Origin: Phyllosticta citribraziliensis
Lineage: Eukaryota
Direction of reading: 5' to 3'
Length of the DNA: 64,000 nt
Assembly: GCF_038025025.1 (NCBI RefSeq)
Contig: NW_027117347.1
Location: 1,674,001-1,738,000, forward strand
Shown: positions 35,003 to 62,905 of the stretch, in pieces
Layout of the letters: the number at the start of each line of letters is the position of its first letter
Position numbering within the stretch: position 1 is the first letter of the stretch
Translations under genes and position numbers: made by a program
Notes under the pieces: generated by a model
What the model was told of the DNA's origin: nothing
The model's input: only the letters and a program-made list of their open reading frames with translations
The model's database searches: none

Positions 35003-36204
35003 TCAGGCGTAAATGTTGCAGTACGCACTGATCATCTTCTCAAGCGTTGGCTTCATCCCAAACTCCTCGACCATCTGTGGAATTCTGGACCCTCTGTCAA
35101 GTTTCCCGTCGCCATCCCAGTCAAAGCGAACGCCTCCATTTCGCTCGAACCCAAGATGCTCGAGCTGACTTTCCTCCAATAACCGTTTGAGCATAGGAAT
35201 CCAGGTAGCACCCTGTTCATCTGTACTGCAGCCGAAGATGGAAAGCTTGCGCAGAGACTGTAGGTTTTCTCCCTGCACCACGACATGGTGGAAACAATGC
35301 AGGAAACCAGCACCAGCGGATTCCATCTCACTAATGTTCAACAGCTCCAGTTCTTCCAGGCAGGCGTTAAAATACTCAGGTGGTTGACAAAGCACCACAT
35401 CGGAGACACTGAGAAATTTTGGATCGCGTCCAGTCAGATGGTAGCCATCAATCCAGAATGGCACATTCTCCGGCCTACAGTTCTTGATATAGATCCCGTA
35501 GTCGTTTGTGGTATTCCCAAACCAGATGAGATCGAAGTAACGCCCCCAGTCATAGAAGACTCGGAATTCAACGGAGCTTTCGATTCTTTCCAGCGCATAG
35601 TAAAATGGCAAGGATCGGGAGTCAGGCCGTCCTTGGCCGTCCGTTTAGCTCCTCCGAAGTCAAGCGAGATCCGCTCCAGATTTTCGAATCTTTTCAATGC
35701 TTGTGCGAGCATCAGGCCCAAGACAAGACAGTCATCTTCTTCTCCTGGTAGCTTCTTCAAGGCCGGGTCGGGGAAAGTTTTCTCCACATATTTGCGATGC
35801 CTTTTGAGGTCCCTTTGCCAGGAATTGGCAGGGAACTTGGTGAAATGCAAGTACTCAACGCTCTTGGCAAATCGAGTTTTGCTCAAGTTGACGAGAAGCC
35901 TTGCTTGCTTCCATGTCAGAGGGCCTTCGATGGTCGTGGACTGAGACTGAAAAGTCTTTTCCAGGTGGTTTCAGAGCGTCTTTGAGCTGACGGTGAGTGA
36001 TTTGAGATCTCGTCGCTGCAGCTTTCCACCGATCCTGCACACAACTTCTGCGGGCAGCTTCTCCAAATACGAAGGCGATGCCTCACGAGGGACAGGCTTT
36101 GTCGTTTTGCGAGACCGGGAGCTGTTCGATTTGCGAGGCTGAGGGGTCTTTTTGGCGCCGCCTTGAGGTTTCGTCAGGTTGTGAGATTTTGGTTTGGGTG
36201 GCAT
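35003..36204 (-). pseudogene. F-box protein, FDWDG-cap family member 2, disrupted
   Basis: F-box LEKLPAEVVCRIGGKLQRRDLKSLTVSS; in-frame TGA 35971-35973 (KTL*NHLEKTF); frameshift near 35620-35650 with no GT donor to explain it; intact cap VRFDWDGDGKLDRGSRIPQMVEEFGMKPTLEKMISAY. Confidence 0.85.
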
Positions 36205-36958
36205 GTCGACAACCATCCGGACGGGCGAGATGGGAGGCCAAACTGTGGGAGGATCGAGTAAGTTTGATGGGAAATGGCTGTATATACCACAGACCACTCG
36301 ATCCCTTGCACCGGTTACAATTCCGCTGATCCACTGGCAAATTGATATGCGGGTTCTGGCAGGCAAAGCCCACACAGCCGGAACGTGTCACACGATGCTC
36401 ACGCGCGAGCGAGTTCTCCAAGTCAAGCGCCAAAACTACTCCCATAGAGTCGCCAATCTGGAGGATCGCGAAGTTTCCATGGTTTCCAGCCGTTTCGGAA
36501 CCCATTCGTGGTGTTTACGGACACGTCTTCTGACCAAATCGACGCGTCAGAGGGGCTGAGGTTGATTTCCAGGGTCGTTTTCGCGTCTGCTCTCTTGCGT
36601 TGTAACACTGAAGCGCAAGCGATGCAGCCGTAAACGATTAGGAGACGTGAGGTGAAAACCCTCAGATCGTCGGCCGTGATCTGAAGGCTCCAGGCTGCTG
36701 CACTGGCTTTGCCATCTTGGGGCTCGGTGACGAAGCACTTGACTTCATTGACGCCATGAGTGGATAGAACCCGGGATCATGGACAGATGAAGGGATCAAT
36801 TGCTCGATGGGATGGGAATGGGGCTGTCTGCACTGCCCATAGTTCTGGAAGCCCGCGACGTACGGCCGAGCCCCGCACCAGGCCTAGTTTGCCCCTATGA
36901 TCCAGCAGCTCATGTAAAGACTGAGGATTGTGGACAGGAACGCCATCTCAAAAATCTC

Positions 36959-38113
36959 TCAACGAGCAACTTGACGGTAGGCATTTATCATCTTGTCGAG
37001 AGCCTGCTCCATCCCCAGTTCTTTGATGATTTCTGGCAGTCGAGTCCCGTTATCCAAATTTCCGTCGCTGTCCCAATCGAAGCGGACACCACGCACGTCT
37101 TCGAATCGTAGATTCTCAAGATGTTTGTGTTTTTTCAAGGCTTCAAAGAATGGTATCCATGACTCGTTTCTGCCTGACGGTTGGCATCGGACCAGGGACA
37201 GCTCGCGAAGATTATACTTCGGGTGGCTCACAAGACGCTGGAATGCGCACCTGCGAGCATCGCGGCCGAAAATACCGTCCTCATCGCCGTCCTCATCAGC
37301 GTGAAATTGGGCGAACTCGACAACGTCCTCAAGAAATAGCACATCTGGAGCTTTTGTTGGACTGTATATCCGATCAACAAAAGACTGTTTAACAAACATC
37401 TGTGAAAGTCGAAGGATTGAAGGGTATTGGCATCCACTCAGAAGCGTATTTGTGATGCCGCTCCACAAAGCCGCAAGCATGTCGTCCAGGTCAGTGAAGA
37501 GGTCGTTGCCACCGCGCAAAATCACTTCATCGATAGTGCGTTTGCAAATACCGAGCCGGGGAACTTCGCACCGGTAGTGGCGGTTGTCTGCCGAGAAGCT
37601 GATGTCGTGTTCTAGCCCCTGAAGCATCTGCGAAATAGTCTCGAAGCACCATGGAATGTCGTCTGGGTCGCCGCCCATGCCAAGAGACAAGTCCATGGGA
37701 TTCCAGAGCATGATGGAAACAGACTCCAGGTTTTCAAACCCTTTCAGCGCTTTGTGGGCTGTGGGGATAAATTGCTTTTTGTAAAACTCGGTTTCGGCAA
37801 AATTTGAAATCGAAGGCCGCTTGAAGACAATACTCGTGAGGTGTTTGGCGATCCTGCGTTCACCCACCCACTTGAAGTTTAACAGTTGAGAAAACTCCAA
37901 ATAGAAAGGTCGCACGGCACCCTTCAAAGCCCACTTCATCTCGCGGTCCATTTCATGGTGAAGCTTTTTGCTCGCCAGTCGTAGACTCAAAATGTCTCGA
38001 GGAGACACGAATCGAGCAATCGCAGACACCATTTCACCCGGCAATCTCTCCAGAGCTGAGTATGGTTGTTGAGAAAGTTCGGAAGCGATTAACATGGTCG
38101 CCTTGGCCGACAT
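36959..38113 (-). CDS. F-box protein, FDWDG-cap family member 3
   Basis: Intronless; F-box LERLPGEMVSAIARFVSPRDILSLRLAS; LRR-like FENLESVSI, LRELSLVRC; cap VRFDWDSDGNLDNGTRLPEIIKELGMEQALDKMINAY. Confidence 0.9.
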   Translation of the reverse strand: MSAKATMLIASELSQQPYSALERLPGEMVSAIARFVSPRDILSLRLASKKLHHEMDREMKWALKGAVRPFYLEFSQLLNFKWVGERRIAKHLTSIVFKRPSISNFAETEFYKKQFIPTAHKALKGFENLESVSIMLWNPMDLSLGMGGDPDDIPWCFETISQMLQGLEHDISFSADNRHYRCEVPRLGICKRTIDEVILRGGNDLFTDLDDMLAALWSGITNTLLSGCQYPSILRLSQMFVKQSFVDRIYSPTKAPDVLFLEDVVEFAQFHADEDGDEDGIFGRDARRCAFQRLVSHPKYNLRELSLVRCQPSGRNESWIPFFEALKKHKHLENLRFEDVRGVRFDWDSDGNLDNGTRLPEIIKELGMEQALDKMINAYRQVAR

Positions 38114-39053
38114 TGCTGTACGCGAGGTAGGAATCGGTACGCCGAGGTTTTGTGGCAAAACTCGTGGCACACACAACCCCCCAATCACCACACTCGGGGC
38201 TTGAATGCTCCTTGTCAGTCGCAATTATAGCGTATGAATGCTCCCAAGCCTAACACGGTGGGGTGGGATCGAGCGGGCGAAGCGTTGGCCGACGTAGGAT
38301 TTTGTGGGAGCCCAGATGGCGACGGGGCTCGAGGAGATGGCGAGAGGCCGAGTCGGGCGGACGTTTCCGCACGGTGTCTGTTTCAACGATGGCTCCTGGT
38401 GGCGAGGATGGTGATGAAAGGGTTGGGGCCTAGCGCGGCGAGAGTGCAACGGCGAGGACTGGAGTTGAGAGATGGTACAGGTACCACATAGGTAGGTACC
38501 GCAGACGCGTGCAGGTAGGCGCGCCGGGCAGGCGACGACGCTAACCCCGATACGGTAGCAAGAACACAACACCAAGGGGAAACAGACATGGAGCGCCCAC
38601 ACCAAACGCCATTGCCGCTGTCAATGGGGAGCCCAGCAAAGATTTCAAATCGCCGCATCCTAATCCAATAGCGAAGGAAACAGTCCCTCGTCAATGCTGC
38701 ACCTAGCTCGACCAGCCACGCCCGCGGAGCCATCCTTCAGCAATCAACACATCCTAAGCAAGCGAATCACAATTTCTTGTCTCTTACCAGCCTCCGGCCT
38801 TCGCGATTCGCCAAGTCAAAGAGTATAACTAGGATAAGCTCAGGCCAGTGACAAGAAACCGGCATGTGCGTTTTTCCGATCAGATATAAAAAGCCGGCCG
38901 CGTCCGGATGCGTGCGGTCGCGTTGAAACAAACCCTCCAGATCACCCAAGAGCCCCCTCTCGACCAGGGAGACGTGGTCACGTCTAGCTGACCCATTGTT
39001 CCTCTAAATCTTCCGATCCTTAGACTGCAAGGGGAGGCCAAGTTCAATGAAGT

Positions 39054-40507
39054 ATGATGGAAAGACTTCTTGACCTGTCGGCACAGGAGGAGGAAGCTCA
39101 AATCGGAAACCTGCAATCGACCGCCACCATGCTCAGACGTCGCGACCTAAATCCTTTAACGTCAAAACTGCCGACGGAGCTGGTCAACGAGGTCGCCCTA
39201 TATCTCGATGCCAAAAGTATCGCAGCTTTCAGGATCATGAGTAAGGCTGTTGCCGGTCGAATCGATAACGCGTTCAGCAAGCGCTTCGAGACCACGAAGT
39301 GCCGGTTGGCTCACGATTGTGAAGATACCCAAAGAGTGAAAGAGCTCGGCAAGAGCAAGTACGCCGACAAGGTCAAGCACATTGAATGGATTGAGACAGA
39401 ACCAGGTCTTTTTTCATCGTTGGGGAGGGAAGAGGTAAATCCGCGACTGGAGATGACTGGCGCTTGGTTGGTTGACGACTTTAGGATATTCGGGATCCTT
39501 CCGTCGCCAAAATCGATGAGTACCAGCGCTTGTTTGAAAAAAGGTTGCAGTTCATTTTGTCCCCACAGCGGTTCGGAAACCTGACATCACTTACACTGTG
39601 TGGGGAATACGATCTGCGCGAGGAATGCCTAGCAGGGCCCGAACGATGTGAAGGAGAGCTGCTCCTTGAATTCCTATCGTACGTTTTTGCCGGCACAATT
39701 AGGAGCTTGGAACAGCTGCTCTCTCGCTCCTGTAAAAGCCCCTTAGAAGTTCATGTGACGTATCAAAATTTGATGCGATGCACCATCTTTTGGGCTGGGG
39801 ATCGAGAAGAGTCTGGAGACATCATGATGACAAGTCTGTGCAGAGGCTCCGATCATGCCACAGAGACATATCATATCAGCACACTAACGTTTCAAGATGT
39901 TAACGGGCAATGGGTGCAACTTGACGAGGGTTTTGATTGTTCTTTCCACGAAAGAGCACTCATAGTTTGCACGCACTTCCTGGAAGTAAAGCTGCTGGGA
40001 CATCCTCTGAGAAGTCTTCATCTATCTGCCTTTGACATTCGGACGAGCGAGCTGGCACATCTTTGCTGCTATTGCGATGACCATTTTCCTATCACCCACT
40101 TTGAAATCTTGACCCTCGAACACTGTTCAATCCTCTCCGAGAAAGGCCGAACAACCCGGTACGTTGGACATGATGAGGTCTTTAGATTTGGGGGCTTCAT
40201 TTCCCGGTCAGAGAGGACACGCGAGCTGTCTCTAGTCGACATTAGAATTGAGCTAGAGCCAGGTGTCTCGTGGATCACAGTCTTCCAACACCTTCGTCGA
40301 TCCAAAACGCTGCAGAAATTCCGCTTCGAGAAGGTGCAGAACGTCTTCTTTGACTGGGACGGCAATGGGGAGCTCGATGACGGTTCAAGGCTCCCGAGCA
40401 TCATCGAGCAAAAGGGTCTCAAAGGGGCGCTCAGAAAAATGATTGGATGTTACCGCTACGTGCGGTCAGAGGATCAGGTGGAGGAGGCGGAAGAGAGCGA
40501 GTTGTAG
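39054..40507 (+). CDS. F-box protein, FDWDG-cap family member 4
   Basis: F-box KLPTELVNEVALYLDAKSIAAFRIMS; phase-0 intron 39435-39484 (GTAAAT...TTGAC...TAG) joins the two ORFs in frame; cap FFDWDGNGELDDGSRLPSIIEQKGLKGALRKMIGCY. Confidence 0.9.
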
Positions 40508-40825
40508 TCGAGCTCTGGGACTACTTCAGACGAGGAGGAGGAAGAGAGCGAGGAGGAATGGGAAGAGGGTGCCGGGCTAGCCTCAGACGTCGACCATTCG
40601 GAGGGGAATACTAGGGCTGCTTCAGAGGTGGAATAGTGGTGGGCTTCAGGGAGGGTCAGATTGGTCGGAGTTTTTTGGTTTCCATAGCAAAGTGGCTGTA
40701 TCCGGTTGAATGCGTCTTGTCTATACCCTGTACACATATTGGAATGCTCCTTACTTTCCCCGAGGCTCCTGTCCGCGGTGGCTCGAATGGTCCACGCCAA
40801 TCGTCTGTTGACGCGTAGACCGTCT

Positions 40826-42237
40826 TCAATGGTCAAAACCATCCGACCACATCTGTTCCTCTGTGCAATGACACCCAACAGTCAGGTTGGAACAGTCCAG
40901 GTCCTCGCGGACTCTGTAGGCCTCGATCATCCTGCGAAGTGCTTCCCGCATGCCAAAGTTTTGGGTCATTTCTGGCAGCCGCGATCCGTCATCCAGATTC
41001 CCGTCGCCGTCCCAGTCGAAAAACACACCACTGACCTTCTCGAACCGGAATCTTTCCATCATTTGACTTTGTCCCCGAAGACGCTTCAGAAACCAGGTTC
41101 CATGTACCAAATTGAGGAAGGATGGGAGCCTGCAGCAAACAATTGAAAGGTTTCGGCGCGCTCCATACCTCCTTGTGCACAGGCCCAACACGCGGAGAAG
41201 GCCGTCTTGAAAGTTATGTGATCCGTCGTAGCCTAGATGCTCAAAGTTGTAGAGAATCAAAGTATTTGCGTCTACCTCACGAGTCGCCTGATAGAAATTG
41301 GTGGTGAAAGTGCCTCTGTCTAGCTGAATGCAGTGCAGTCGGAGTGTGCATGGGCCGTGGGAATGCATGAAAAAGGCGCTGCGCTCTCTGAGTGGACACC
41401 TAGGGAGTTGCTCATAGACCGGCACACCGATGACATCTTGGTCTTGCAAGAACTTTTCCCAATCACGAGCTTCATTCTGCAAAAAGCGCACTGGCAGCGT
41501 TGGATGCCACGTCGCCGCCATTTGAGTTGTCTTCAGAGGGTCTCCTTTCCAAGGAATCTCACAGAGCCAACTCTTGAAGTCAAGACGCAGTCTCAGCGGA
41601 GTATCAAGGCTTTCGGCGAACAACCTCACGGCATCCGTGTTTGTATCAGTCATTGGCGACATGAATTGTAGGCGCGAGACTTTGGGCATGGTATTTTCAC
41701 ATCCAAATATACCTGAACAGTCCAAAGTGAGGGTCTGAAGGTTTTTGAATGAGCCAATCAAGTTCGGAAGCTGCACCGCCAATATCTGAGCGACGTCGGC
41801 GCGGAACTCCTCGAGGTCGTCTCGTCTTTCGCTATTGCTGGAGTCCGCTGTTGACGGTGGAGGAGCTGGGTCCTAGGACACCTTCAGTTCATGACAATCA
41901 AGTCTTGACATTGCCGAGGAGTTGGTCCTACAAGTCTGCCGGATACGAATTGCAAACTATCTGGTCTGGGCAAGACGAGATGCTTCACATAGTCGGAGAA
42001 ACAGCTCTCGTTCAATGTCTCCAGTCGCTCTAGCTCAGACGGTGCCAAACCGAAGCGTATCTCTGCGAATCGGGTCTTGAAATTGCAACGAGCCTGGCAT
42101 GCAATTTTGGCGCTGGCTAGCCTGAGCGATAGAAGACTCTGTTTGTCCAGATGACAAACGATTCTCTCCACCATTTCCGTTGGGAGTTGGTGGATGGCCG
42201 CATCGAGCCCAGAACAGGAAGATGACCTGCTGGCCAT
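40826..42237 (-). CDS. F-box protein, FDWDG-cap family member 5
   Basis: F-box IHQLPTEMVERIVCHLDKQSLLSLRLAS; phase-0 intron 41873-41931 (alternative donor 41946) restores the frame; cap FFDWDGDGNLDDGSRLPEMTQNFGMREALRRMIEAY. Confidence 0.88.
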
Positions 42238-44403
42238 ATTCGCTGTCTCCGTGAGGACTAAGGATTGGTGAGATCTGGCCCCCAAAGAAATGATGAAATG
42301 TTTTTGAAGTTGCGGCGTGGGAGTGTCGCGTCAACGCTGCAAAGGACGTGATGGCTTACCTAAGCAACTACCCTGTAACAACTAGGTCCCGAACCTCAAC
42401 CAAACACCCAGCATAACCACGACGCGATGAATTGTTTTCCTGTCCTCCAAATCATCTCAAGCTCAACAATTGCTCGACACTTCTCCTCTGTACACCATGG
42501 ACCCGTCATTCTGCTTCGCATTGCGCGCGATGACAATGTTTCATGGCAATAAGAGAAGGCCTTCCATCCACTCCCTCCGCAGGCTTCATGTATACTGACA
42601 GGTGGGTATTTGACGTCTACTCGCCATGCAGACAGCTATGACCTGCCCTCCATACAGAACGCATCCTGGCCGAGCCAGAGAGCAACAATCGACCTAATTC
42701 TCCCGTCGCGACAACGCGGAGGGACACCGCCAGCAGCCAATGAACCAGGCCGCGGACTACATTACATCTGCCGCGTCTACCTCGCACCCATGCCTCGCCT
42801 CATCTCTCTGCGCAACCGCAATCATCACCAAACCCACCGGGACCACCATCCACCGCCGGCCTCGCCAGCCATCCATCACCCATCCCGTCCTCCCATCTCG
42901 CCGACGCGTCCTCCACATGGATAAACCCTGCTCATACCGCAACGCCTCACCCTACCGCTAGCGCGCTCGCGTCGCGCCGCGCCGTCGCTGGGACGGATGG
43001 CGGGGAGCGCCCCGGGCCCCGGATGAGCTGCTCAAGCGAACGTCCGAGAGTGCTGGGCGACTGCCGGCTTGTGGGTTGGCAGGTGGACGACATGGGCGGA
43101 CAACGCAGCGGCGCGGCGCGACGCGACACAAGATGGCGATGGAATGGCGTGGTTTCAAGTGGCTGGGCGACGTCTGCGTGAAAAGTTGGTTGCGAGGACA
43201 CTGCGGCTCTTATGGTACCCGCTGTGGGCCGTTGGCCAACGAGGTCAGCTCTCTGCGCGTACGGGAGTCATTTCGAACGACAACACCAGGGCTCGAGCCG
43301 TACAGCGCGCTCTAACTCCAATCTCTCTCCAAATTCCACTGGCCATCCATCCGATCGAACCCAGAAACCAATCACCTTCAACACAGGTAAGCCCCGTCCA
43401 TGCACCCGCCAAGCCGCAAATCCAACACTACATACTGCACGCCTCGGGTAACATGCTACTTGGCATACATCGCGCAAAGCAGCATGCATGCACGCCAAGT
43501 GCAGTCTACACAATCAATCAGCGAGAGATCTGGCGGGGCCCGACGGTCCATTCGCTTTACGCGCTGCAATATTTGGGCTGCTGTTGCTCGGCATCTGTCG
43601 TGAACAGGCGTGGATGCGTCCTGTCGAGATGGGAACGGAGCTGTGTGGTGCGTCATGCATCGTGCGAGGTGCCCAATAGGTGGGCTGGTTGATAAGGTAG
43701 GTCGACTGCTGCACGTATACTTGACTTGCATTGCAGGCGCTCGCTCGCGTGGTCGGATGTGCAGCTGAACTGATAGCTGTCCTCCGGGTACTCGGACACC
43801 TGGGCCCAGCTTGGACGAGGCGAAAGGGGCGCGAAACAAAACAGCCGCATCTGACAACTCCATCAAATATTTGTGTCGGAGAGAGCAAACAGGTGGAGAG
43901 CCTGACTCCCAGGTTCTCGAGCGGGCTTAGCGGAAGCTTTGATCTGGCGTCCAGATCCCTCTTTGTCAAACACGGCTCAAACGCACATGCGAGAAGAAAC
44001 AAGCAGAGCATTCAACCAGAAGCCAATCCGAATCCAATTTCATTCTCTCCAATTTGGGACGAGTCTCGCTCGCCCTGTGCCTACGCTACGCTACGCTATG
44101 CCGCAGCTTCAGTCTTCGCAACATCAACAACAACAACCGCAATTTCCCTTCCTCCACATCGACTGACTGACTGTCTCGATCCACAAAAGCCGTAAACATT
44201 GACCTGACCCGACCTGACCCTCCCGCAAATGCAAGCGCAAGTGTACAACCAACCAAACAACCAAGCATCCACGCACGCAAGCACGGCACCAATCCCACAG
44301 CCCTCGGGACATTTTGCAGCAAATCAATCTTCTTCTTCGCTCGCTTGCTCGCTCGCTCATTGCAACAGCCAAATCGACGGACGGGAGGCAGGTAGACCAT
44401 CAT

Positions 44404-50711: not shown

Positions 50712-51341
50712 TGGGCGCGCGGAATGGAGGAGGGGCTCGAGAGAAGGGCGGCCAGCGCTGGACGATGGGACGGCATCGTAAGGCATGCAGGGCGACGGCG
50801 AGGCCCTGTCATGATATGATGGACCAAGGGCGCTGTAGTGGGGGGAGATGGCAGATGTGGATGGGAGCAACGCAGGGTTGCAGCCAGATTGCCAAAGTCA
50901 TGGCCCATCTGGCGGGCAGTGACAAGCAGAGGGACGGCAGTGACTTCTGCCCCACTTCCCCTCCTGCCGCCACAAACCTTGCCGAATCGCGCAGTGACCA
51001 CAGCAAAGTTGGACCTCAACCTTCAGCGTTGCATCTCCTTTTCGCTGTCACCTCGCTATCAAAACTCTACCAGCATTGACATCCTGATACCGAGAGATCT
51101 GTGTGTCGCCGTCATCAACAAGCAGAGTCTACCAGGGTAAGACGCAAACATTTCCCATTGGACAACCACTTGCCCTCTTACCCCCATTCGGTCCTGCTTA
51201 CCAGAAATAGCAGTTTGCGGAGTTGAAGCTTTGTCCACTGGCCCACACGATATCGACCATTCAGCCTGCCCACCCCTCGTGACCCATCTCGAGCTCTCTC
51301 AGTCAAGCTCCAATACGACGACCGCTCTTATTACCCGGAAC

Positions 51342-53585: not shown

Positions 53586-54713
53586 ATGTCTTCGAATACA
53601 GGAAACGATCAGGTCGCGTTTCGCTTCAAATTCTCATCTGAATCAATACCGCAGCTGCAAAGGCTCTCTGACAGCCCATCAGCCCACAAGATCAAGCGAC
53701 TCGCTTTATTCAGCCTTGGGCTTCGGGAGATGCCAGATACCGGGGGCTACCTCAACCCAGCACCGGGAAAAGTCTACCACGTCCCGGGCGAAGGCGACTA
53801 CGAAATGGCAGATGGCGATGGTGTATTGCCTGACATCGCCTGTCTGCATTGGACCAGGAAATTTGCCCCCATCATTGGGTCGTTCGACTCTCTTGAAGAG
53901 CTCACTCTGGACACTTCTCCGTACCGCGGTATGGGCTTGCCGTTCTCCAGGAGCCTGTTGTCGCACGTCGAAGACAACGAGGCTCCTGTCCTGGTGCGCG
54001 TCGAATTCCAGACTTATATTTGCGAGTTTTTCTGGAGAGGCTTCCAAAAGACCAAAGAGGTCACGTTTAAACCCAACCCGCGTCTCCAAGGGTCCGAGCG
54101 GAAAGCGATCTACTCGGATGCTGAGCGATTGTCGAGTCAGTTTGAAGACGTTTTTGAAAAATTGTCCATGGCCTACTTCGATCAAGGCCCGTCCACCTGC
54201 CGGTTCGAGTCGCTGGATATGGCGGGAGCGACCATCTTCTCTCTTTGCCATGAATACCTAGACGAGCCGTTTCTAGAGTCATTCAACCGTCCGCCTCTGT
54301 CTTTATCCCTCAAGAACATCAGGGAACGAAGACTGTTCGAGGACGAGTCGGACGACGAGTACGACACGGAGGAAGAGGAAGAGGAAGAGGAAGACGAGGG
54401 AGAAGAGAACCGCCCCATCCTCGAACAGCTGGCCAACAGCGAGCGCGTCCTCCGCGAGCTGTCGATTGTCAATTGCACATTCTACAAGGCGGACACGCTT
54501 CTCGTCCCGTTGTTCCAACACCTCAAGAACAATTGCTCCGAAAATCTTCGCACTTTCCGCTTTGAAGGGGTCAAGGATTTGGACGGCACCCCCGTCATGT
54601 TTGACTGGTCTGGCAATGGCAAGCTGGATGACGGCTCGCTTGTGCCGGAGATGGTGGAAAGCATGGGTATGTGGGGGGCTCTTGGACGAATGATTCGCTG
54701 CGTGCGATTTTAG
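53586..54713 (+). CDS. FDWDG-cap family member 6, lacking a recognisable F-box
   Basis: AAACCATG start; begins at the post-F-box region (LQRLSDSPSAHKIKRLAL); FDSLEELTLD, ICEFFWRG, poly-E tract, LRELSIVNC; cap MFDWSGNGKLDDGSLVPEMVESMGMWGALGRMIRCV. Confidence 0.82.
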   Translation: MSSNTGNDQVAFRFKFSSESIPQLQRLSDSPSAHKIKRLALFSLGLREMPDTGGYLNPAPGKVYHVPGEGDYEMADGDGVLPDIACLHWTRKFAPIIGSFDSLEELTLDTSPYRGMGLPFSRSLLSHVEDNEAPVLVRVEFQTYICEFFWRGFQKTKEVTFKPNPRLQGSERKAIYSDAERLSSQFEDVFEKLSMAYFDQGPSTCRFESLDMAGATIFSLCHEYLDEPFLESFNRPPLSLSLKNIRERRLFEDESDDEYDTEEEEEEEEDEGEENRPILEQLANSERVLRELSIVNCTFYKADTLLVPLFQHLKNNCSENLRTFRFEGVKDLDGTPVMFDWSGNGKLDDGSLVPEMVESMGMWGALGRMIRCVRF

Positions 54714-55396: not shown

Positions 55397-56947
55397 ATGA
55401 CCAAAAAAAGAACCAAAAAAACGTTGACCCCCCTTGGGCAGACAGTAAGTATTGCCCTCAGCGCTCGTCGACTAACTCCAATACACACGCGACCGGGACT
55501 GACTGACGGCAAACAGATGTCGGAATCTTCAACGCAGCCTCCGACCCAATCGTCGTCCACCACTCACCCTACCGCCGTCATGCACCGCTTCTCAAGCTTT
55601 GAGAGCCTCCCGACCGAGCTCTCGCATCTCGTTTGCGAGAACCTGGACTTCAACGATCTGAAAAAGCTCCGCCTGGCTAGCCGGACCATGGAAGCGAAGG
55701 CCACATTCACGATGGAAAAGTTATACCGGTCGAAATTCTACAAGATTCGCCTCGCCCTCACGCAATCCAATCTCCGTGCGTTGGAAAAGTTTGCGGATGG
55801 CTCGTTAGCCAAATACGTCTTCCGTCTTACATTGAAAAAGACGGACTTCGAGACCTTTGTCCAGGATGCTAAGGAGACGGCACAATCAGCTGAGACGTCG
55901 CCGTGGCGGGCCGCAATGAAACCCTATCGACGCAACTACAAGAAAAGGCTCTATCATGAAGCCAATAAGTGGACTGGGAAGCCACTCCATGCGATCCTTC
56001 CTTGCTTGAACCAGCTTCGTCTCACCACTCCCGGCCTAAACAACGAATATGGTCCCAAAGCATCAATCAGCGAGATCATCTTGTGGGACTGTGAGGTCAT
56101 TGGAACTCTTCTTGGGAATTTCGAGAGACGCTCATCCATGGAGTTGAACATAGACGGCTTCCTCGGCTGCAAAATCGAAGTCAATGAAAATTCACCCATG
56201 CCAGATGTAGCCTTTTGGGAATCTCGTGGACGTTGGGAACCTCCTCTAGGCGATCCATATCATACGGTGCCTGGGTCCCTCGATCAGCTCGAGGCACTGC
56301 AGAGCTACTGCCAGCAAATCGAACTCCGCCTCTGTCAGCGCCCGATCCGGATCCTAAAGTTGTGGGATTTGCGGTTAGCCCTTCCCCACTTGCAGTCAAT
56401 TTTCCAAACGGCAAGCCCTCCTCGAGAATTGAAGCTTGAGTCGTGCTTGCTGGACTTCGATGAGAACTTATCCAGGTTGCCTCTACCATACGAGTGGAGT
56501 TTTCCACTGGAGGCGTTTACGAATCAACGCAACAGTACTTCTCTCAGACCGCCCAGGCTATGGGGGCCGTCAAATCTCACAGAGCAACCGCGCTTCGTAG
56601 CCAACAGAGAGTCAATCGAAGCCTTTGTCGCGTCAGTCCGCCCAAATCTCCGGAAACTGGCCATACACCACTGCAAAACTCAACCGTATACAAGTCCTTC
56701 TTCGTTAAGCCATCTTCTCGAGACACTCAAGTCGTGCCAAGATTTGGAACTAGTTGAGATCGAGTTTCAGGAGTACACATTTAAGGAGCAGCGTGACGGA
56801 AATGAGAACAGCGACATGTTTGAAGCCCTGTTCCATGAACAGAACCTGGACTGGGCAGCCGTGGTTGCCGAAAAGGGAATTGTGGGAACTCTCGACGACG
56901 CGATTCGCTGCGTGGCTCGAGTTCGCGCGGAATGGGAACCAAGATGA
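55397..56947 (+). CDS. F-box protein, family member 7 (cap degenerate)
   Basis: Exon 55397-55444 MTKKRTKK..., in-frame intron 55445-55516 (GTAAGT...CTGAC...CAG); F-box FESLPTELSHLVCENLDFNDLKKLRLAS; LRR-like RELKLESC, LRKLAIHHC; ends VVAEKGIVGTLDDAIRCV. Confidence 0.85.
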   Translation: MTKKRTKKTLTPLGQTVSIALSARRLTPIHTRPGLTDGKQMSESSTQPPTQSSSTTHPTAVMHRFSSFESLPTELSHLVCENLDFNDLKKLRLASRTMEAKATFTMEKLYRSKFYKIRLALTQSNLRALEKFADGSLAKYVFRLTLKKTDFETFVQDAKETAQSAETSPWRAAMKPYRRNYKKRLYHEANKWTGKPLHAILPCLNQLRLTTPGLNNEYGPKASISEIILWDCEVIGTLLGNFERRSSMELNIDGFLGCKIEVNENSPMPDVAFWESRGRWEPPLGDPYHTVPGSLDQLEALQSYCQQIELRLCQRPIRILKLWDLRLALPHLQSIFQTASPPRELKLESCLLDFDENLSRLPLPYEWSFPLEAFTNQRNSTSLRPPRLWGPSNLTEQPRFVANRESIEAFVASVRPNLRKLAIHHCKTQPYTSPSSLSHLLETLKSCQDLELVEIEFQEYTFKEQRDGNENSDMFEALFHEQNLDWAAVVAEKGIVGTLDDAIRCVARVRAEWEPR

Positions 56948-58351: not shown

Positions 58352-59107
58352 AAACGGCTCTTGGCTGCCACCATGAGGTTCAGGAGGCTTTGCCAGACCC
58401 GCTGTTGACATCTGATTGATGGGCCGACGTTCCATGTGGGGGAAATTTTGGCAAGCGACGGACTACATCATGCCCGCGTGGGAGCCTTCTCGCGAAACCA
58501 CGTCATTTGATCGCGACGGTGCCTGCAAACTTTCGTTCGCAACCATATCGCCAAGGTCGGCGTCTGACGGAACGAAGGAACAAGTAAGCTCGGGTCGGCT
58601 CATGGGCCTCCTTCTCTTCCCCAAAATGATGCCTCAACCATTACTTCACGGCGAGGAAGGCTGACATCATCAATCTTCTTGCTCCTCATCGAAGCTTGTG
58701 CCCGGCTAGGAAAAGATTACACTTGGTTGCGATGAGCACCACAAGTGATAAAATTGACGCGGCTTCCTGTGTTTTTCGAACGTCCTCTGGGCTTTTTGTT
58801 AGAGAAATTCAACACTTCGCGGTGATTGCTTTTCTTGGTACACTCCTTGGGCTTTCCGTGGTCGACATCCATCACTTCGCCGGCATCCGTGTTCTCCTGC
58901 GCTCCAACAATGGACAGCATGCACCGCTGTACCGTTGTTATTCCCAACAACAAAGGGAAGCTCAACATTGCATGCTCGCAGACATATAACGCCGTCTGCT
59001 CCTGCGGTCGCATCTTCCAAATCATCCCCTCCACAGACAACCCGGCGACTTTTCAAGTTCTCTGCCAACCCCCTTCACAAATTTCGCGCACTCCTTCGCT
59101 CTCAGAC

Positions 59108-60727
59108 ATGGATCTTGCCCGAATACTGCAAAAGCCTCCGACAGCAAGTATGGAGCACGGTAATACAGATGGGTTAGCAATCAAGTCCACTGAAGCCCTA
59201 TCCACGACCAGGTCTACGGAAGCCACTGGAGGATCTCCTCGGACGCCACATAACAACGGTGCCAACTATGTGGCCGTTGATCGTGGAATTGAAAATATTC
59301 CGTCACCCTTTAGGCTGTGGTCCACCGAGTTGGTGGAGGGCGTCGCCGACCACCTTGATACCAAAGATTTGTGCGCGTTTCGAGCTACCTGTGCAACAAT
59401 TGCAGGTCAGGTCGACTATCCGTTCAAGAAGCGCTTCGGCAGCGTGGAATACACCATTACGGATAGCCAAACGGTAAATGCCGCGAAATTCGACCGTCTG
59501 AGACAGTTCAGACGAAGTCGACTCGCCGACGAAGTCAGGACTCTTACGTTCATTGAGCGCGAAAAAGGAGGGTTCCCCATTCTAAATGTAAGTCCCCCCA
59601 GCACGACCAAGCGAGCCAAAGCTGACATGTCTCAGAATTCTTTGCCTGGTCATGAAGACGGAGACATTCGCTTCTTCAGGGATGAGATAAGGATCCCAAT
59701 GACCTTTGTCAATTCGCTGGAATGGTTTCCGAAACTAGAGACCCTTGTCTTCTCCTCGGACTATGTTCCTCGTGAACGCATCGTATCGGAGATCACTCCC
59801 GCGATCGAGGACTACAAATCTGTTTTCACGAGCCTGGAGCAGCTCCTCCGCAGACGGAAAACCCCATTGCAAGTCCAAGTCCGACACAGGGACTTGATCT
59901 CGTGCGAGTTCAACTGGACTGGAAAGCGCGAAACCACCCACAACATCTCGTTCCGGTCCCTCAGGACGAAGACGGCAGTCGAGGAGGAAATTCGCGAGAT
60001 GATGCGTATCGCTTTGGACCCGACCAGGCAGTGCTTTTACAACTTCGAGATCAAACGGTACTGTGTCCAGTTGAAGGAAACTCTCCTCAAGCATAGCCTC
60101 CGCGTCATCAAGCTGTCTGGCTTCACGTTTCGCATCCTCGACCTCGCAGACCTGTTCAGTTCGCGGAGAGCCCTCTTTGGGCCCGAGACCCTCATTATAA
60201 ACGACTGCCAAATCAGGTTTGATGAAGAACCCTTCAGTGGCCAAACGATCGTCAGATGGACCCAGATGAGGGCCTTCATCGAAGACCTGGGTCGCACGGG
60301 AGTTCGGCACCTCGAGTTTGTCGATGTCAGTCTCAATATAGCTGCCCATTTGATCTGCATTCCTCTCTTCCAGCTGATTCGGAAATTCTGCAGGCTCAAA
60401 AGCTTCCGCTTTGAGCGGTTTGATCGCGTGTTCTTCGATTGGGACGGCGACAACCAGTTGGACGATGGCAGAAGACTTCCAGAGATGATCCGAAAGTTGG
60501 GTGGCGTCAACATGGCTATCTGGGAAATGGAGAGGTGCGTCCTCTACAAGAGAATTCTTCCTGCAGGTTCCTTTCCCAAAAAGGAGAAAAAGCAGGAGGA
60601 GCAAAATCAAGAGACGAAAGAGCAGGAGGAGGAAAAGCAGGAAAGTGGAAAGAAGGATGCAGAGAAGCCTGAGGAAGAAGAAGATGAGGACAGATATGAT
60701 CTGCCTGACGAGTATTTTGGCTTTTAG
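59108..60727 (+). CDS. F-box protein, FDWDG-cap family member 9
   Basis: F-box FRLWSTELVEGVADHLDTKDLCAFRATC; in-frame intron 59588-59635 (GTAAGT...GCTGAC...CAG); SCEFNWTG; cap FFDWDGDNQLDDGRRLPEMIRKLGGVNMAIWEMERCV; acidic tail. Start codon uncertain. Confidence 0.88.
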   Translation: MDLARILQKPPTASMEHGNTDGLAIKSTEALSTTRSTEATGGSPRTPHNNGANYVAVDRGIENIPSPFRLWSTELVEGVADHLDTKDLCAFRATCATIAGQVDYPFKKRFGSVEYTITDSQTVNAAKFDRLRQFRRSRLADEVRTLTFIEREKGGFPILNVSPPSTTKRAKADMSQNSLPGHEDGDIRFFRDEIRIPMTFVNSLEWFPKLETLVFSSDYVPRERIVSEITPAIEDYKSVFTSLEQLLRRRKTPLQVQVRHRDLISCEFNWTGKRETTHNISFRSLRTKTAVEEEIREMMRIALDPTRQCFYNFEIKRYCVQLKETLLKHSLRVIKLSGFTFRILDLADLFSSRRALFGPETLIINDCQIRFDEEPFSGQTIVRWTQMRAFIEDLGRTGVRHLEFVDVSLNIAAHLICIPLFQLIRKFCRLKSFRFERFDRVFFDWDGDNQLDDGRRLPEMIRKLGGVNMAIWEMERCVLYKRILPAGSFPKKEKKQEEQNQETKEQEEEKQESGKKDAEKPEEEEDEDRYDLPDEYFGF

Positions 60728-61654
60728 ATCGCCGTTTGGCGTGGTTTGGCGTCTTGGTGTGTTTTTTTGGGTCTTTAACTCCTGCGGGAGACGGGGAGCA
60801 TTCTAGTATTCGTGCTTTCTGTTTCCCCGGTTTTTCATGCACTTCGTGGTATTTTCTGGTACGTTATCTCTTTCCACGATGATACCTCTCACATCCCAAG
60901 ACATGTGTAGACCTAGCAATTTATTTTCGTCGAATGGAAGTCTTTGTGTCCTTTGACGCATCTGTGGCCTGAAATGTTCACCTTATGCCTATTACCTTGA
61001 CGGAGGCGTGATTTTGTGCGCTGCGTGGGCAAATTTTCTTTGTGGTCCGATGCCAGGTTGGCTCAGTCGCGTCCTCGGTCGCGTCCGCTCCTGGAAAATA
61101 CAACACACAAACCTTGGACTTCTTCAAGGTACAACCCCACTCACCACAACTACAGCTTGGCTGATTGAAGCTGTCAGAACTCGCTAAGTCGTCTGCGACG
61201 AGCAAATCACCTCGCCGCTCGCCGATCGCCGTCGCCGCCGCCAGCGCAAGCTCTTCACCTCTACTGTTTCCACGTTCCGCCGACTCTCGACTCTCAGCGA
61301 CAACATCGAGCGACCTGGCCTTGGGAGACATCCAGAACCATCTTGCGGAGGTCTCTGAGCACCCTGGGGTGAGCGGGGCGAGATCACTCTTCTTTCTGGT
61401 CACCGACTACCGCATGCTCGCCTCCAATCACCACACAAGATCCTTGTGAGAGGTCGACCAATCAAAACATTCGCCGCCGTGGTGGCTCCAAGCTATTCGT
61501 TTTCGCTGCCGAGTCAAGGGAGACTTGCACGTCAAACACAAGAACCCATTCTATCGGGTAGCTGGGTCTTGGCAGAACCGAGCATTAAGAAGATCGGTGG
61601 CTCGTCCTTTGTCGCCGTTCAAGAGTTGGTGCTTTGCTCTCTACTCCTTTCGCA

Positions 61655-62905
61655 ATGGCGGACTCTTCAGCGTGCAATGGGTCAGAATGCGGCAGTGAGA
61701 CCTACACCCCGATTGAAGAGTTGCCAACGAAACTGGTCGCGGCCATCACTTCATACCTCGACCCCGTCGACCGGAAGAGGCTCCGCCTCGTCAGCATCAC
61801 CATGCTCAATCACCTCAATGAGATCATGAAGCCGGCTTTCCAGAATCTCAGATGCCGGCCCCTTCTCTCCGAACTCTACTCCCTCGCAGAATTCTCGACT
61901 GACAGTCCGCTGGCCAAAGAAGTCAGATCATTGACTTTCACCTTCTTCGATTCTGCCGCTGTCAAGCAAGACCTGAAGGACCTACGCGACGGAAAGGGTC
62001 ACGGTTTGATGATATGTGAGAACATCAAAAGCGAAATGAAAGAAGAAGGTGGAATCGAGAGAGTCCATTCTGTGTTCGCTCTCCAGCAATGCCAAGCAAT
62101 GATTGCAAGGGTAATCAGAGGCTTGGAGGGTGTGACGACGCTTGGACTGGTTTTCAAGACTGCACCCGTCTTCTTCATCCCTCCCGAATTCTTGCGCGAG
62201 CCACACATGTACCAAGACATGATCGTGGGCAGGTTGCTTCCCAGGATCGAAAAGCCGTTGATGGTCCGCGTTTACGACCCTCCCATGCGTTGGGGATTTT
62301 CCTGGACGGGAACCCACGCCTCCGCCATGTCCTACGAGACGTTGACGCCATCCACGCAGCTTGTGCGCAATTGCCCAAGTCCCGAAGACGAGACTTGGTT
62401 CGCGAACATGGGTTGGTTCTTCCTTCTCGCCGGTCACCAGCTAAAGTCTCTCCATTTACACAACGTCATTGTGCCACTGCAGGTGGTTGAGGAAGTGCTC
62501 GAGGACGTGAAGAATTTGGAAGTCTTGTCGATTACTGAGAGCATTCTTCTAGAAGATGCTCCAATTTATCCTCCGGCGTTGATCGACCCAGGCAGCAAGC
62601 TCCAGAAGAGCCTTCGCGAGCTGTCCCTTCGTTTCTGCAGCGGAGCCACCCACCCTTTGCCCCGCCTATTCAAAGCTTTCCGAGAGGGCGGCAGGCTGGA
62701 ACGCTTCCAATTCGAGCAGATTGAAGGCATCTGGTTTGACTGGGACAAGACCGGCACTTTTGACGACGGCTCGTCGGTGCCGGCAATGATTGAAAAGATT
62801 GGTATGAAGAAGACGCTGGAGAGGATGGAGCAGTCCTGTTGTTGGGGCATGACGCCGCGCCATCCCCGCCTGGCAGAATTGTTTCCCCCCAACATCGATG
62901 CCTGA
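61655..62905 (+). CDS. F-box protein, FDWDG-cap family member 10
   Basis: Intronless; F-box IEELPTKLVAAITSYLDPVDRKRLRLVS; LRR-like LKSLHLHNV, LEVLSITES, LRELSLRFC; cap IWFDWDKTGTFDDGSSVPAMIEKIGMKKTLERMEQSC. Confidence 0.9.
   Translation: MADSSACNGSECGSETYTPIEELPTKLVAAITSYLDPVDRKRLRLVSITMLNHLNEIMKPAFQNLRCRPLLSELYSLAEFSTDSPLAKEVRSLTFTFFDSAAVKQDLKDLRDGKGHGLMICENIKSEMKEEGGIERVHSVFALQQCQAMIARVIRGLEGVTTLGLVFKTAPVFFIPPEFLREPHMYQDMIVGRLLPRIEKPLMVRVYDPPMRWGFSWTGTHASAMSYETLTPSTQLVRNCPSPEDETWFANMGWFFLLAGHQLKSLHLHNVIVPLQVVEEVLEDVKNLEVLSITESILLEDAPIYPPALIDPGSKLQKSLRELSLRFCSGATHPLPRLFKAFREGGRLERFQFEQIEGIWFDWDKTGTFDDGSSVPAMIEKIGMKKTLERMEQSCCWGMTPRHPRLAELFPPNIDA

What the first reader, a model, noticed from the sequence alone, without database searches (positions are those of the whole stretch)
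35030..62830. Conserved C-terminal FDWDGDGxLDDGSRLP cap with a DxDxDG-type loop
Seen in seven copies plus one variant: RFDWDGDGKLDRGSRIP (about 35100), RFDWDSDGNLDNGTRLP (37060), FFDWDGNGELDDGSRLP (40360), FFDWDGDGNLDDGSRLP (41000), MFDWSGNGKLDDGSLVP (54610), FFDWDGDNQLDDGRRLP (60445), WFDWDKTGTFDDGSSVP (62745) and YFHWWDGVIDSGARL (21130), each followed by a G-[ML]-xx-[AT]-L-xx-M-type helix. It is better conserved than the F-box itself. Established: Dx[DN]xDG loops bind Ca2+ in EF-hands, FG-GAP and dockerin domains. Inference: a metal-binding LRR cap or a docking site for a common partner, which could make the ligases Ca2+-sensitive.
Basis: partly seen in the sequence, partly recalled or inferred. 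Interest (0 to 1): 0.7.

Follow-up and report, generated by a model that had tools for sequence, protein, structure and literature searches.

The report
Conserved end-cap of fungal F-box/LRR genes
A family of probable ubiquitin-ligase adaptor genes, found almost only in the fungal genus Phyllosticta, shares a strongly conserved tail that most likely seals the end of its repeat domain; the tail carries an acidic loop that looks like a calcium-binding site, but calcium binding is not shown.

Summary
All eight quoted peptides sit at the stated places: 8 motif hits against a mean of 0.035 in 200 shuffles. They belong to eight of nine paralogous F-box/LRR genes spread over 42 kb. AlphaFold models are confident (pLDDT 84.7 for the whole protein, 92.7 for the cap) and match Skp2, TIR1, MAX2, FBXL2/3 and ribonuclease inhibitor. 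The motif is the last, irregular LRR: a strand, a 12-residue Asp/Gly loop anchored by Phe and Trp, and two amphipathic helices. It matches no Pfam family (no FBD, no EF-hand), no solved sequence and no solved fold. Every named relative but one is from Phyllosticta. Conservation is at protein level, not from gene conversion. The published Dx[DN]xDGx[ILV][DSTN] pattern is intact in only 3 of 8 window copies and 14 of 50 distinct family loops. A sister group keeps the cap with a shorter loop that lacks two of the three Asp residues. My reading: a structural LRR cap. Calcium binding remains possible for a subset and is untested. This is a new variant of a known kind, of moderate to low interest.

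The parts
35003..36387 (-). Paralog A: F-box piece 35977-36096; cap 35024-35167 (loop DWDGDGKLDRGS). The reading frame is interrupted between three ORF pieces.
   Evidence: The annotated model P0004 maps here. The X1 contig is colinear (unspliced) across it.
36959..38113 (-). Paralog B: single exon, 384 aa (P0001). F-box about 37943-38053; cap 36980-37123 (loop DWDSDGNLDNGT).
   Evidence: AlphaFold model pLDDT 84.7. Fold matches to F-box/LRR proteins.
39054..40507 (+). Paralog C: F-box exon about 39132-39260; predicted 50-nt GT..AG intron 39435-39484; cap 40307-40450 (loop DWDGNGELDDGS).
   Evidence: The intron is used in annotated model P0005 but is retained in the one X1 contig.
40826..42237 (-). 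Paralog D: F-box about 42076-42201; 59-nt intron 41872-41930; cap 40919-41062 (loop DWDGDGNLDDGS).
   Evidence: Contig 5 of run X1 joins 41871 to 41931 with GT..AG on the minus strand, in frame.
53586..54713 (+). Paralog E: LRR plus cap, no F-box found; cap 54558-54701 (loop DWSGNGKLDDGS).
   Evidence: family profile positions 60-357 only.
55397..56947 (+). Paralog I: F-box about 55574-55693 and LRR. The C-terminal helices are kept, but the Phe-Asp-Trp loop is replaced by a longer, different loop.
   Evidence: (family profile positions 7-329; no hit to the cap profile at E<=10). (hhalign E 0.0017 over 78 columns).
58910..60727 (+). Paralog F: F-box about 59300-59425; cap 60392-60538 (loop DWDGDNQLDDGR; extra Gly before helix 2); acidic/Lys-rich C-terminal tail.
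   Evidence: annotated model P0015.
61655..62905 (+). Paralog G: single exon, 416 aa (P0006). F-box about 61712-61804; cap 62693-62836 (loop DWDKTGTFDDGS).
20901..22136 (-). Paralog H: F-box about 22029-22112; short-loop variant cap 21048-21191 (HWWDGVIDSGA).
   Evidence: It groups with the Lasiodiplodia short-loop proteins.

Best explanation
The conserved block is the terminal, irregular leucine-rich repeat plus capping helices of a fast-evolving F-box/LRR family that is almost restricted to Phyllosticta. These proteins are probable SCF substrate receptors. The segment 'LxxLRFExV' is the last LRR strand. Phe0, Trp2 and Leu8 anchor a 12-residue Asp/Gly-rich omega loop. The segments 'LPEMIEEF' and 'MxxALxKMIxAY' are two amphipathic helices that cover the open end of the solenoid core. 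Every paralog needs this seal in order to fold, so it is held by purifying selection while the LRR surfaces diverge, presumably for different substrates. On this reading the Asp, Asn, Ser and Gly residues of the loop are kept mainly for turn geometry: Asx-type turns, helix capping, and salt bridges to the conserved Arg13 and to the Glu of the last strand. A metal is not required. Shown here: the fold class, the position of the block, the conservation pattern, the distribution among species, and expression of one member. Inferred: the capping role and the metal-independent stabilisation.
For: Fold. The AlphaFold model of paralog B has pLDDT 84.7 and pTM 0.82, with cap blocks at 96-98. Foldseek hits are MAX2 (E 1.7e-4), NLRP3, FBXL2, FBXL3, TIR1 and Skp2. 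VIA gives NLRP3 Z 10.6, ribonuclease inhibitor Z 10.3, TIR1 Z 9.8, and Skp2 Z 8.7 over model residues 16-368. The family profile hits ribonuclease inhibitor at E 2.6e-7, and the alignment ends on 'LesLrFE', an LRR strand.

Secondary structure of the cap: strand, helix, strand, short strand, loop, two helices.

Conservation. The lowest-entropy positions are Phe0, Trp2, Gly6, Asp9, Gly11, Pro15, Gly22 and the i/i+3/i+4 hydrophobic positions of both helices. The regular expression used in that call fixed Phe0, D/N at position 1, D/E at position 9 and Gly11.

Selection. Across the 7 canonical window caps, amino-acid identity is 0.50 but third-codon-position identity is 0.41. Identical residues use identical codons in 130 of 297 cases, and the longest shared nucleotide run is 13. 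This points to protein-level selection, not gene conversion.

Ligand pattern. The strict pattern is present in only 14 of 50 distinct loops and 3 of 8 window copies.

Sister group. It comprises paralog H, P0010, P0035 and the Lasiodiplodia proteins P0044 and P0096. It keeps the strand, Phe, Trp, Asp-Gly, Asp and Gly residues and both helices, with a loop one residue shorter that lacks Asp1 and Asp3. Paralog I keeps the helices with a different loop.

Literature. LRR proteins generally carry specialised caps thought to shield the hydrophobic core (passage of PMC3986869).
Against: The only conserved polar residues of the cap are clustered in the loop: Asp1 in 35/35, Asp3 in 29/35, Asp or Asn at position 5 in 33/35, Asp or Asn at position 10 in 30/35, and Asp or Glu at position 9 (fixed by the regular expression). 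They follow the EF-hand spacing 1-3-5-6-8-9, which a purely structural turn does not require. Seven of 50 distinct loops carry Glu at position 12, and 3 of these give a complete D-x-D-x-D-G-x-L-D-x-x-E loop. The cap profile cross-hits bacterial GEVED repeats at their similar 'WFDWNxxGxFD' motif, and Pfam also gives weak EF-hand matches to those repeats. I could not inspect model coordinates, so the proposed hydrogen-bond and salt-bridge network is inference only. The capping role itself is untested.
Confidence: 0.5

Rival explanations
1. The loop is a true Dx[DN]xDG calcium site in a strand-loop-helix context. It could be a structural ion that rigidifies the cap, or a sensor that makes substrate binding or stability of these SCF receptors depend on Ca2+. 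It would work at least in the copies with an intact pattern (A, B and D in the window, and the Glu12 subclade elsewhere).
For: The consensus D-W-D-G-D-G-x-L-D-D fits the pattern Dx[DN]xDGx[ILV][DSTN]x quoted in PMC3123361 (passages). That paper reports the motif evolving convergently at least 16 times, in contexts that include strand-loop-helix. It also describes homologues that differ in whether a longer loop carries the motif. That situation matches the long-loop versus short-loop split seen here. D/N exchange at positions 3, 5 and 10, and S/T at positions 3 and 5, are the substitutions tolerated in such loops. Three of 50 loops have the full 12-residue arrangement with Glu12. The loop is modelled with pLDDT 96-98.
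Against: The strict pattern holds in only 14 of 50 distinct loops and 3 of 8 window copies. Gly6 is replaced by Arg, Ser, Thr or Asn, and position 8 by Lys, Arg or Pro, in several members. Position 12 is Ser, Thr or Arg in the 7 long-loop window copies (the short-loop variant H has no acidic residue there either), and Ser in 24 of 35 family loops. The element before the loop is a strand, not a helix. No EF-hand, dockerin or other calcium-domain Pfam hit appeared at E<=1. No fold match of the cap alone to a calcium-binding domain was found; the best VIA Z was 3.2, which is inconclusive. As I recall, the PROSITE EF-hand pattern disallows Trp at loop position 2 (recalled, not checked). These are presumably cytosolic or nuclear proteins, where a site lacking the position-12 carboxylate would probably be empty at resting Ca2+ (inference).
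Confidence: 0.25
2. The acidic loop and the exposed faces of the helices form a docking surface shared by all paralogs. The partner could be a common accessory factor (as Cks1 is for Skp2; recalled) or another family member in a homo- or heterodimer.
For: A conserved patch of surface-type polar residues is shared by otherwise 15-20% identical paralogs. The cap also persists in members without an F-box (paralog E). Short annotated proteins also carry it (P0019, P0030, P0032), although these may be truncated gene models.
Against: No partner is known. Most conserved cap positions are hydrophobic and Gly/Pro, which points to the core. The polar positions vary among members.
Confidence: 0.1
3. The cap looks conserved only because recent gene conversion or recent duplication has homogenised the 3' ends of neighbouring genes.
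For: The genes are clustered and the cap is the most similar part.
Against: Third-codon-position identity is 0.41 against 0.66 at positions 1 and 2. Identical residues share codons in only 130 of 297 cases, and the longest shared nucleotide run is 13. Terminal branches of the tree have a median of 0.66 changes per site. The same cap occurs in five named Phyllosticta species.
Confidence: 0.02

Closest known systems
FBXL-type F-box/LRR substrate receptors of SCF ligases (Skp2, FBXL2, FBXL3; plant TIR1, COI1, MAX2/D3)
   Same: An N-terminal F-box-like helix bundle is followed by a curved LRR solenoid. These proteins are the top Foldseek and VIA matches. ESM Atlas neighbours are Ascomycota 'F-box domain-containing' clusters.
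   Different: F-box scores for the window copies are below Pfam's cut-off (16.6-17.9 bits against 20.5). The repeats are irregular and include a three-strand insert. The C-terminal cap with the Phe-Asp-Trp loop has no counterpart: Atlas structural alignments of the whole protein end at residues 343-367, and the cap alone has no fold match.
Ribonuclease-inhibitor-type LRR
   Same: The family profile hits ribonuclease inhibitor at E 2.6e-7 and VIA gives Z 10.3. 'LxxLRFE' aligns with the ribonuclease-inhibitor strand 'LESLKLE'.
   Different: In the last repeat the strand-to-helix connection carries a 12-13-residue Asp/Gly loop, and an extra helix follows.
Dx[DN]xDG calcium-binding linear motif (EF-hand loop and its non-EF-hand contexts; Rigden et al. 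2011, PMC3123361, passages read)
   Same: The spacing is D1-x-D3-x-D5-G6-x-L8-D9. The loop is followed by a helix. A homologous group has a shorter loop without the motif.
   Different: Position 12 is rarely acidic and Trp sits at position 2. The pattern is intact in only 14 of 50 loops. No ion binding has been shown.
Internalin B N-terminal cap (described as resembling a truncated EF-hand; PMC3986869, passages read)
   Same: It is an LRR capping unit with EF-hand-like features that shares the LRR hydrophobic core.
   Different: It is bacterial, extracellular, N-terminal and helical. [quoted passage not shown] No sequence or fold match to the cap was found here.
GEVED domain (PF20009) of bacterial adhesins and T9SS proteins
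   Same: Its first roughly 20 positions read 'WFDWNxxGxFD', which resembles 'FFDWDGDGxLD'. The cap profile hits these repeats.
   Different: The match covers only profile positions of about 16-56. The window proteins do not hit PF20009 at E<=1. GEVED has a different fold context and belongs to a different kingdom, so the likeness is probably convergent. No metal is mentioned in the passages of PMC10952558 that I searched.
Plant FBD domain (PF08387)
   Same: It is a conserved block near the C-terminus of F-box/LRR proteins.
   Different: No hit at E<=1 in the 8 window copies or the 32 family members. One member weakly matches the 'FBD-associated' LRR family PF24758 (E 0.0079), but that match lies in the LRR, not the cap.

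Membership tests
F-box (PF00646 / PF12937) | Sequence match to the F-box profile above Pfam's gathering score | tested here: inconclusive
   Window copies B, G and H score 16.6, 17.9 and 12.6 bits against a cut-off of 20.5. 14 of 32 family members hit PF00646 at E<=1, with a best E of 2e-5. Relatives P0020 (20.7 bits) and P0023 (24.8 bits) pass the cut-off.
F-box (PF00646 / PF12937) | Three-helix F-box fold at the N-terminus, placed as in Skp2 | tested here: met
   Model helices span residues 20-65. VIA aligns model residues 16-368 to Skp2 residues 107-398 with Z 8.7, rmsd 9.2, 251 aligned. Binding to Skp1 was not tested.
Leucine-rich repeat, ribonuclease-inhibitor-like | Repeated strand-helix units forming a solenoid, with sequence similarity to LRR proteins | tested here: met
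   The family profile hits ribonuclease inhibitor at E 2.6e-7 and COI1 at E 0.0067. Foldseek and VIA matches are to LRR proteins.
EF-hand | Helix-loop-helix | tested here: not met
   In both models the element before the loop is a strand (residues 343-345 of P0001).
EF-hand | 12-residue loop with ligands at positions 1, 3, 5, 7, 9 and an acidic residue at position 12 | tested here: not met
   Positions 1, 3, 5, 6, 8 and 9 fit in 3 of 8 window copies. Position 12 is Ser, Thr or Arg in the 7 long-loop window copies, and the shorter variant has no position 12 equivalent that is acidic. Glu12 occurs in 7 of 50 distinct family loops.
EF-hand | Match to the Pfam EF-hand profiles | tested here: not met
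   No EF-hand family hit at E<=1 in the 8 window copies or the 32 members.
Dx[DN]xDG calcium-binding linear motif | Sequence pattern Dx[DN]xDGx[ILV][DSTN] | tested here: inconclusive
   Present in window copies A, B and D (3 of 8) and in 14 of 50 distinct family loops. Absent from the rest.
Dx[DN]xDG calcium-binding linear motif | A bound Ca2+ ion with the canonical ligand geometry | not testable with these tools
The complex tool does not score small molecules.
FBD domain (PF08387) | Match to the profile | tested here: not met
   No hit at E<=1.
GEVED (PF20009) | Match to the profile over the domain | tested here: not met
   No hit at E<=1 in the family. Only the reverse, partial motif-level hits were seen.
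DUF6546 (PF20183; lead from ESM Atlas, score 0.88) | Match to the profile | tested here: not met
   No hit at E<=1. The Atlas score is below 0.9, so it is a lead only.

The most novel reading that the evidence does not exclude
In Phyllosticta, an F-box/LRR receptor family has turned the connection of its last repeat into a working EF-hand-like Ca2+ site, complete with Glu12 in one subclade. The stability or substrate capture of a whole battery of SCF receptors would then respond directly to calcium. I found no description of an F-box/LRR protein that binds calcium through its own LRR cap (literature searches; listings and abstracts only).
Probability: 0.18. Interest if true: 0.6.

Novelty: new variant of a known kind. 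Interest (0 to 1): 0.3.

Why it matters
If the structural reading is right, the finding gives a clean, searchable signature for an uncharacterised F-box/LRR family that is almost restricted to one genus and has expanded in tandem. About 40 representatives at 50% identity were found among 1.84 billion proteins. The genus includes citrus pathogens and endophytes. The finding is also an example of an LRR cap held constant while the binding surface diversifies. If the calcium reading is right, it would be a new structural context for the convergently evolved Dx[DN]xDG motif and a direct link between Ca2+ signalling and SCF substrate receptors. Both readings can be tested with one recombinant protein.

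Tried and rejected
- **Whole-genome search.** No genome is held for this window, so copies outside the window could not be counted.
- **Word-index protein searches.** They found only 2-3 relatives each. The exhaustive profile search was needed.
- **Sequence search of the cap profile against PDB.** Nothing was found (best E 0.59, a 21-residue stretch of a protease).
- **Cap-only fold searches.** VIA wide gave a best Z of 3.2, with none of 48,161 chains at Z>=5. Foldseek gave none at E<=0.001. This is no evidence that the fold is new, because the piece is only 89 residues long.
- **ESM Atlas on the cap.** The nearest clusters are unnamed Ascomycota clusters. The structural rows are LRR ends (LRR_9 TM 0.53, tropomodulin LRR) and are leads only.
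- **PDB search with a GEVED protein, P0047.** No solved relative was found, so the GEVED motif could not be checked for a bound ion.
- **Complex prediction (two copies of paralog B with two Ca2+ riding along).** The queue was full, and the job was accepted. The result was 'no answer' (score 0.00, mark 0.32). The alignment was not used and small molecules are not scored. This counts neither for nor against dimerisation or calcium binding.
- **The look-up of sequencing runs.** No holder is on record as RNA. X1 and X2 are 'RNA?' guesses. X2 covers only parts of the stretch.
- **Earlier-findings look-ups by sequence, by nearby place and by relatives.** Nothing was found.
- **Literature.** Nothing on this family appeared in the searches 'Phyllosticta' + 'F-box' (4 papers, none on these genes) or 'F-box protein' + 'EF-hand' + 'SCF' + 'calcium-dependent'. 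The comparative genome paper PMC6612112 contains neither 'F-box' nor 'ubiquitin'. Its supplements were not read.
- **Gene conversion as the cause of cap conservation.** Rejected on the evidence.


Full report
**1. The observation**

A six-frame scan for the motif found exactly eight sites. The first base of the Phe codon lies at 40349, 60434, 62735 and 54600 on the + strand, and at 41020, 37081, 35125 and 21149 on the - strand. The same pattern gave a mean of 0.035 hits (maximum 1) in 200 shuffles of the window. The helix signature that follows is exact in 6 of 8 copies.

A profile built from a wider family alignment (A3) finds nine paralogs in the window:
- the eight cap-bearing genes;
- 55397-56947 (+), which matches profile positions 7-329 only.

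The tail of that ninth gene still aligns to the cap (hhalign E 0.0017 over 78 columns), but with a longer loop that has lost the Trp.

Three copies (A, C and D) have their F-box in upstream ORF pieces. Copy E has none that I could find.

**2. What the proteins are**

Pfam gives only weak F-box hits. For window copies B, G and H the scores are 16.6, 17.9 and 12.6 bits against a cut-off of 20.5. Of 32 family members, 14 hit PF00646 at E<=1. Nothing hits the C-terminal block.

An AlphaFold2 model of paralog B, made with 32 aligned relatives, is confident: pLDDT 84.7, pTM 0.82, and cap blocks at 96-98. Its matches are:
- Foldseek: MAX2 (E 1.7e-4), NLRP3, FBXL2, FBXL3, TIR1, Skp2 and COI1;
- VIA-align: NLRP3 Z 10.6, ribonuclease inhibitor Z 10.3, TIR1 Z 9.8, and Skp2 Z 8.7 over model residues 16-368.

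The family profile also hits ribonuclease inhibitor by sequence (E 2.6e-7). That alignment ends exactly on 'LesLrFE', so this segment is an LRR strand. ESM Atlas neighbours of the whole protein are Ascomycota 'F-box domain-containing protein' clusters. These are therefore F-box/LRR proteins, probable SCF substrate receptors. Binding to Skp1 was not tested.

**3. Anatomy of the cap**

In both models (the cap alone has pLDDT 92.7) the order of elements is:
- an LRR strand and helix;
- the last LRR strand ('NLRFE', residues 334-338 of P0001);
- a short strand ending in Phe345;
- an eight-residue loop closed by a bridge at Asp354;
- helix 359-366;
- Gly367;
- helix 368-383.

The cap is thus a terminal LRR in which the strand-to-helix connection carries a 12-13-residue Asp/Gly loop, followed by one extra helix.

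I measured conservation in 35 distinct canonical-length caps. The regular expression used in that call fixed Phe0, D/N at position 1, D/E at position 9 and Gly11. The least variable positions are:
- Phe0, Asp1, Trp2 (34/35), Asp3 (29/35), Asp5 (26/35, plus Asn in 7), Gly6 (31/35) and Leu8 (24/35, plus Phe in 3);
- Asp9, Asp or Asn at position 10 (30/35), Gly11 and Ser12 (24/35; Glu in 5);
- Arg13 (22/35), Pro15 (31/35) and Gly22;
- the i/i+3/i+4 hydrophobic positions of both helices.

**4. Is it a known domain?**

No.
- FBD, EF-hand, dockerin, GEVED and DUF6546 all gave no hit at E<=1 in the 8 window copies or the 32 members.
- No PDB sequence matches the cap profile (best E 0.59).
- The cap-only model has no fold match: VIA wide best Z 3.2 among 48,161 chains, and no Foldseek hit at E<=0.001.
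- ESM Atlas places the cap next to unnamed Ascomycota clusters. By structure it sits next to the ends of other LRR domains (LRR_9 TM 0.53, tropomodulin LRR). These are leads only.

**5. Distribution**

The 80-position cap profile was searched against 1.84 billion representative proteins and gave 54 hits at E<=0.001.

Forty of these are family members with the cap.

The other 14 are partial, motif-level matches:
- GEVED repeats with 'WFDWNxxGxFD': P0028, P0036, P0037, P0038 and P0047, confirmed by Pfam;
- helicase-associated-domain repeats: P0040 confirmed by Pfam, and seven others judged by eye;
- one unassigned bacterial repeat protein, P0034.

Of 20 family clusters looked up, 16 carry Phyllosticta names (P. 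capitalensis, citricarpa, paracitricarpa, citriasiana, citrichinensis), one is from Lasiodiplodia theobromae, and three are unnamed. P0002 and P0010 are also from Phyllosticta. Runs of consecutive accession numbers on single contigs suggest that similar tandem clusters exist in P. capitalensis and P. citricarpa (inference).

**6. Evolution**

Pairwise identity among the 32 aligned members is 0.43 in the cap (0.60 in the loop), 0.31 in the F-box and 0.16-0.20 in the LRR body. The set was collected with the cap profile, which favours the cap.

The conservation is not due to gene conversion. Among the seven canonical window caps, third-codon-position identity is 0.41 against 0.66 at positions 1 and 2. 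Identical residues share a codon in 130 of 297 cases, and the longest shared nucleotide run is 13.

I built a tree from 37 rows (IQ-TREE quick). It used 9 window paralogs taken as single ORF pieces plus 28 of the stored relatives. The fusion proteins and near-duplicates were left out, and the cap columns were included. The tree puts all 28 long-loop rows on one side of a branch (SH-aLRT 90). The other nine rows are paralog H, P0010, P0035, P0039, the Lasiodiplodia proteins P0044 and P0096, P0048, P0051, and the paralog I that lacks the loop.

The short-loop group reads F-[HRN]-W-x-D-G-x-x-D-x-G. It keeps Phe, Trp, Asp-Gly, Asp and Gly and both helices, but lacks Asp1 and Asp3. The root is unknown. 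Because the short-loop type is the one shared with another family of the order, the Asp-rich loop is most simply read as a Phyllosticta innovation (inference).

**7. The calcium question**

The consensus D-W-D-G-D-G-x-L-D-D fits the pattern Dx[DN]xDGx[ILV][DSTN]x given for EF-hand-type loops (passages of PMC3123361). That paper also reports the motif in strand-loop-helix contexts and in homologues that differ by a longer, motif-bearing loop.

Several points weigh against a general calcium site:
- The strict pattern is present in only 14 of 50 distinct family loops, and in 3 of 8 window copies (A, B and D; also C if Asn5 is allowed).
- Gly6 is Arg, Ser, Thr or Asn in several members.
- Position 12 is not acidic in any window copy.
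- The preceding element is a strand.

Other points favour it:
- The conserved polar residues are exactly those at the ligand positions.
- D/N and S/T substitutions dominate at those positions.
- Seven of 50 loops have Glu12, and three of these give a full D-x-D-x-D-G-x-L-D-x-x-E loop.

I could not see model coordinates, and the complex tool does not score ions. The internalin B cap is a precedent for an EF-hand-like LRR cap. According to passages of PMC3986869, the potential calcium sites of that cap had no appreciable role in receptor activation.

**8. Expression**

Run X1 is listed as 'RNA?', which is a guess. Its contigs cover most of 34900-42272. One contig joins 41871 to 41931, skipping 59 bases with GT..AG on the minus strand. 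By my frame count this links the F-box ORF and the LRR/cap ORF of paralog D in frame. So at least paralog D is transcribed and spliced into a full-length reading frame.

The predicted 50-nt intron of paralog C (39435-39484) is retained in the single X1 contig there. The contig over paralogs A and B is colinear with the genome.

**9. Verdict**

The block is the C-terminal LRR cap of an F-box/LRR family that is almost restricted to one genus and has expanded in tandem.

My estimates for how it works are:
- a structural seal of the solenoid, with a turn-rich acidic loop that needs no metal: 0.5;
- a true Dx[DN]xDG cation site in at least the intact-pattern members: 0.25;
- a shared docking or dimerisation surface: 0.1.

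I class it as a new variant of a known kind, of moderate to low interest, until a binding measurement says otherwise.

Noticed in passing
window 55397-56947 (+): A ninth paralog has an F-box and LRR, but its cap has lost the Phe-Asp-Trp loop. It has a longer, different loop, and the two helices are kept. It also has the longest branch in the tree (1.96).
   Followed up: partly
window 53586-54713 (+): Paralog E has the LRR and cap but no detectable F-box (family profile positions 60-357 only). No upstream F-box piece was found. It may be an F-box-less member or a truncated gene.
   Followed up: partly
window 35003-36387 (-): The reading frame of paralog A is split over three ORF pieces. The annotated model (P0004) uses a 59-nt GT..AG intron at 35483-35541, which removes part of the conserved mid-protein 'W-x-G' motif. 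The X1 contig is unspliced here at the highest depth (259). It may be a frameshifted pseudogene or a mis-modelled gene.
   Followed up: partly
window 39435-39484 (+): A predicted 50-nt GT..AG intron joins the F-box exon and the LRR ORF of paralog C in frame, but it is retained in the only X1 contig covering it. The annotated model P0005 additionally skips about 540 nt of LRR (39680-40222), which looks doubtful.
   Followed up: partly
P0001 residues about 165-201; window about 37511-37621 (-), and the equivalent place in the other paralogs: A second conserved family motif, 'PLxVRVxxxxxxCExxWxG', is modelled as a three-strand beta meander (E171-176, E180-187, E196-201) inserted in the LRR. It is an island of unknown role.
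   Followed up: no
P0003 (672 aa) and P0073 (1250 aa), relatives from other Phyllosticta genomes: These annotated proteins carry two caps each (for example at residues 476 and 631 of P0003). They are probably neighbouring tandem genes merged into one gene model.
   Followed up: no
P0118 (47 aa), in the 90% cluster of P0031: A 47-residue 'hypothetical protein' labelled Pseudorhodoplanes sp. sits in the same cluster as Phyllosticta F-box proteins. It is probably fungal contamination of a bacterial assembly.
   Followed up: no
P0028, P0036, P0037, P0038, P0047 (bacterial proteins): The N-terminal motif of the GEVED domain (PF20009), 'WFDWNxxGxFD', closely parallels the fungal loop, including the Trp at position 2. 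It draws weak Pfam EF-hand matches. No solved relative was found, so whether GEVED binds calcium there is open.
   Followed up: partly
window 156-1217, 17160-18443, 23297-26737, 28903-30459, 44820-46175, 48956-50443, 51231-52919: The F-box genes are interspersed with ordinary genes: a Sec23/24-type C-terminus, an APH-like kinase, 5-oxoprolinase, a CFEM protein, an MFS transporter, an Atg22-like transporter and a GH3 glycosidase. The paralogs therefore form three small groups, not one uninterrupted array.
   Followed up: yes
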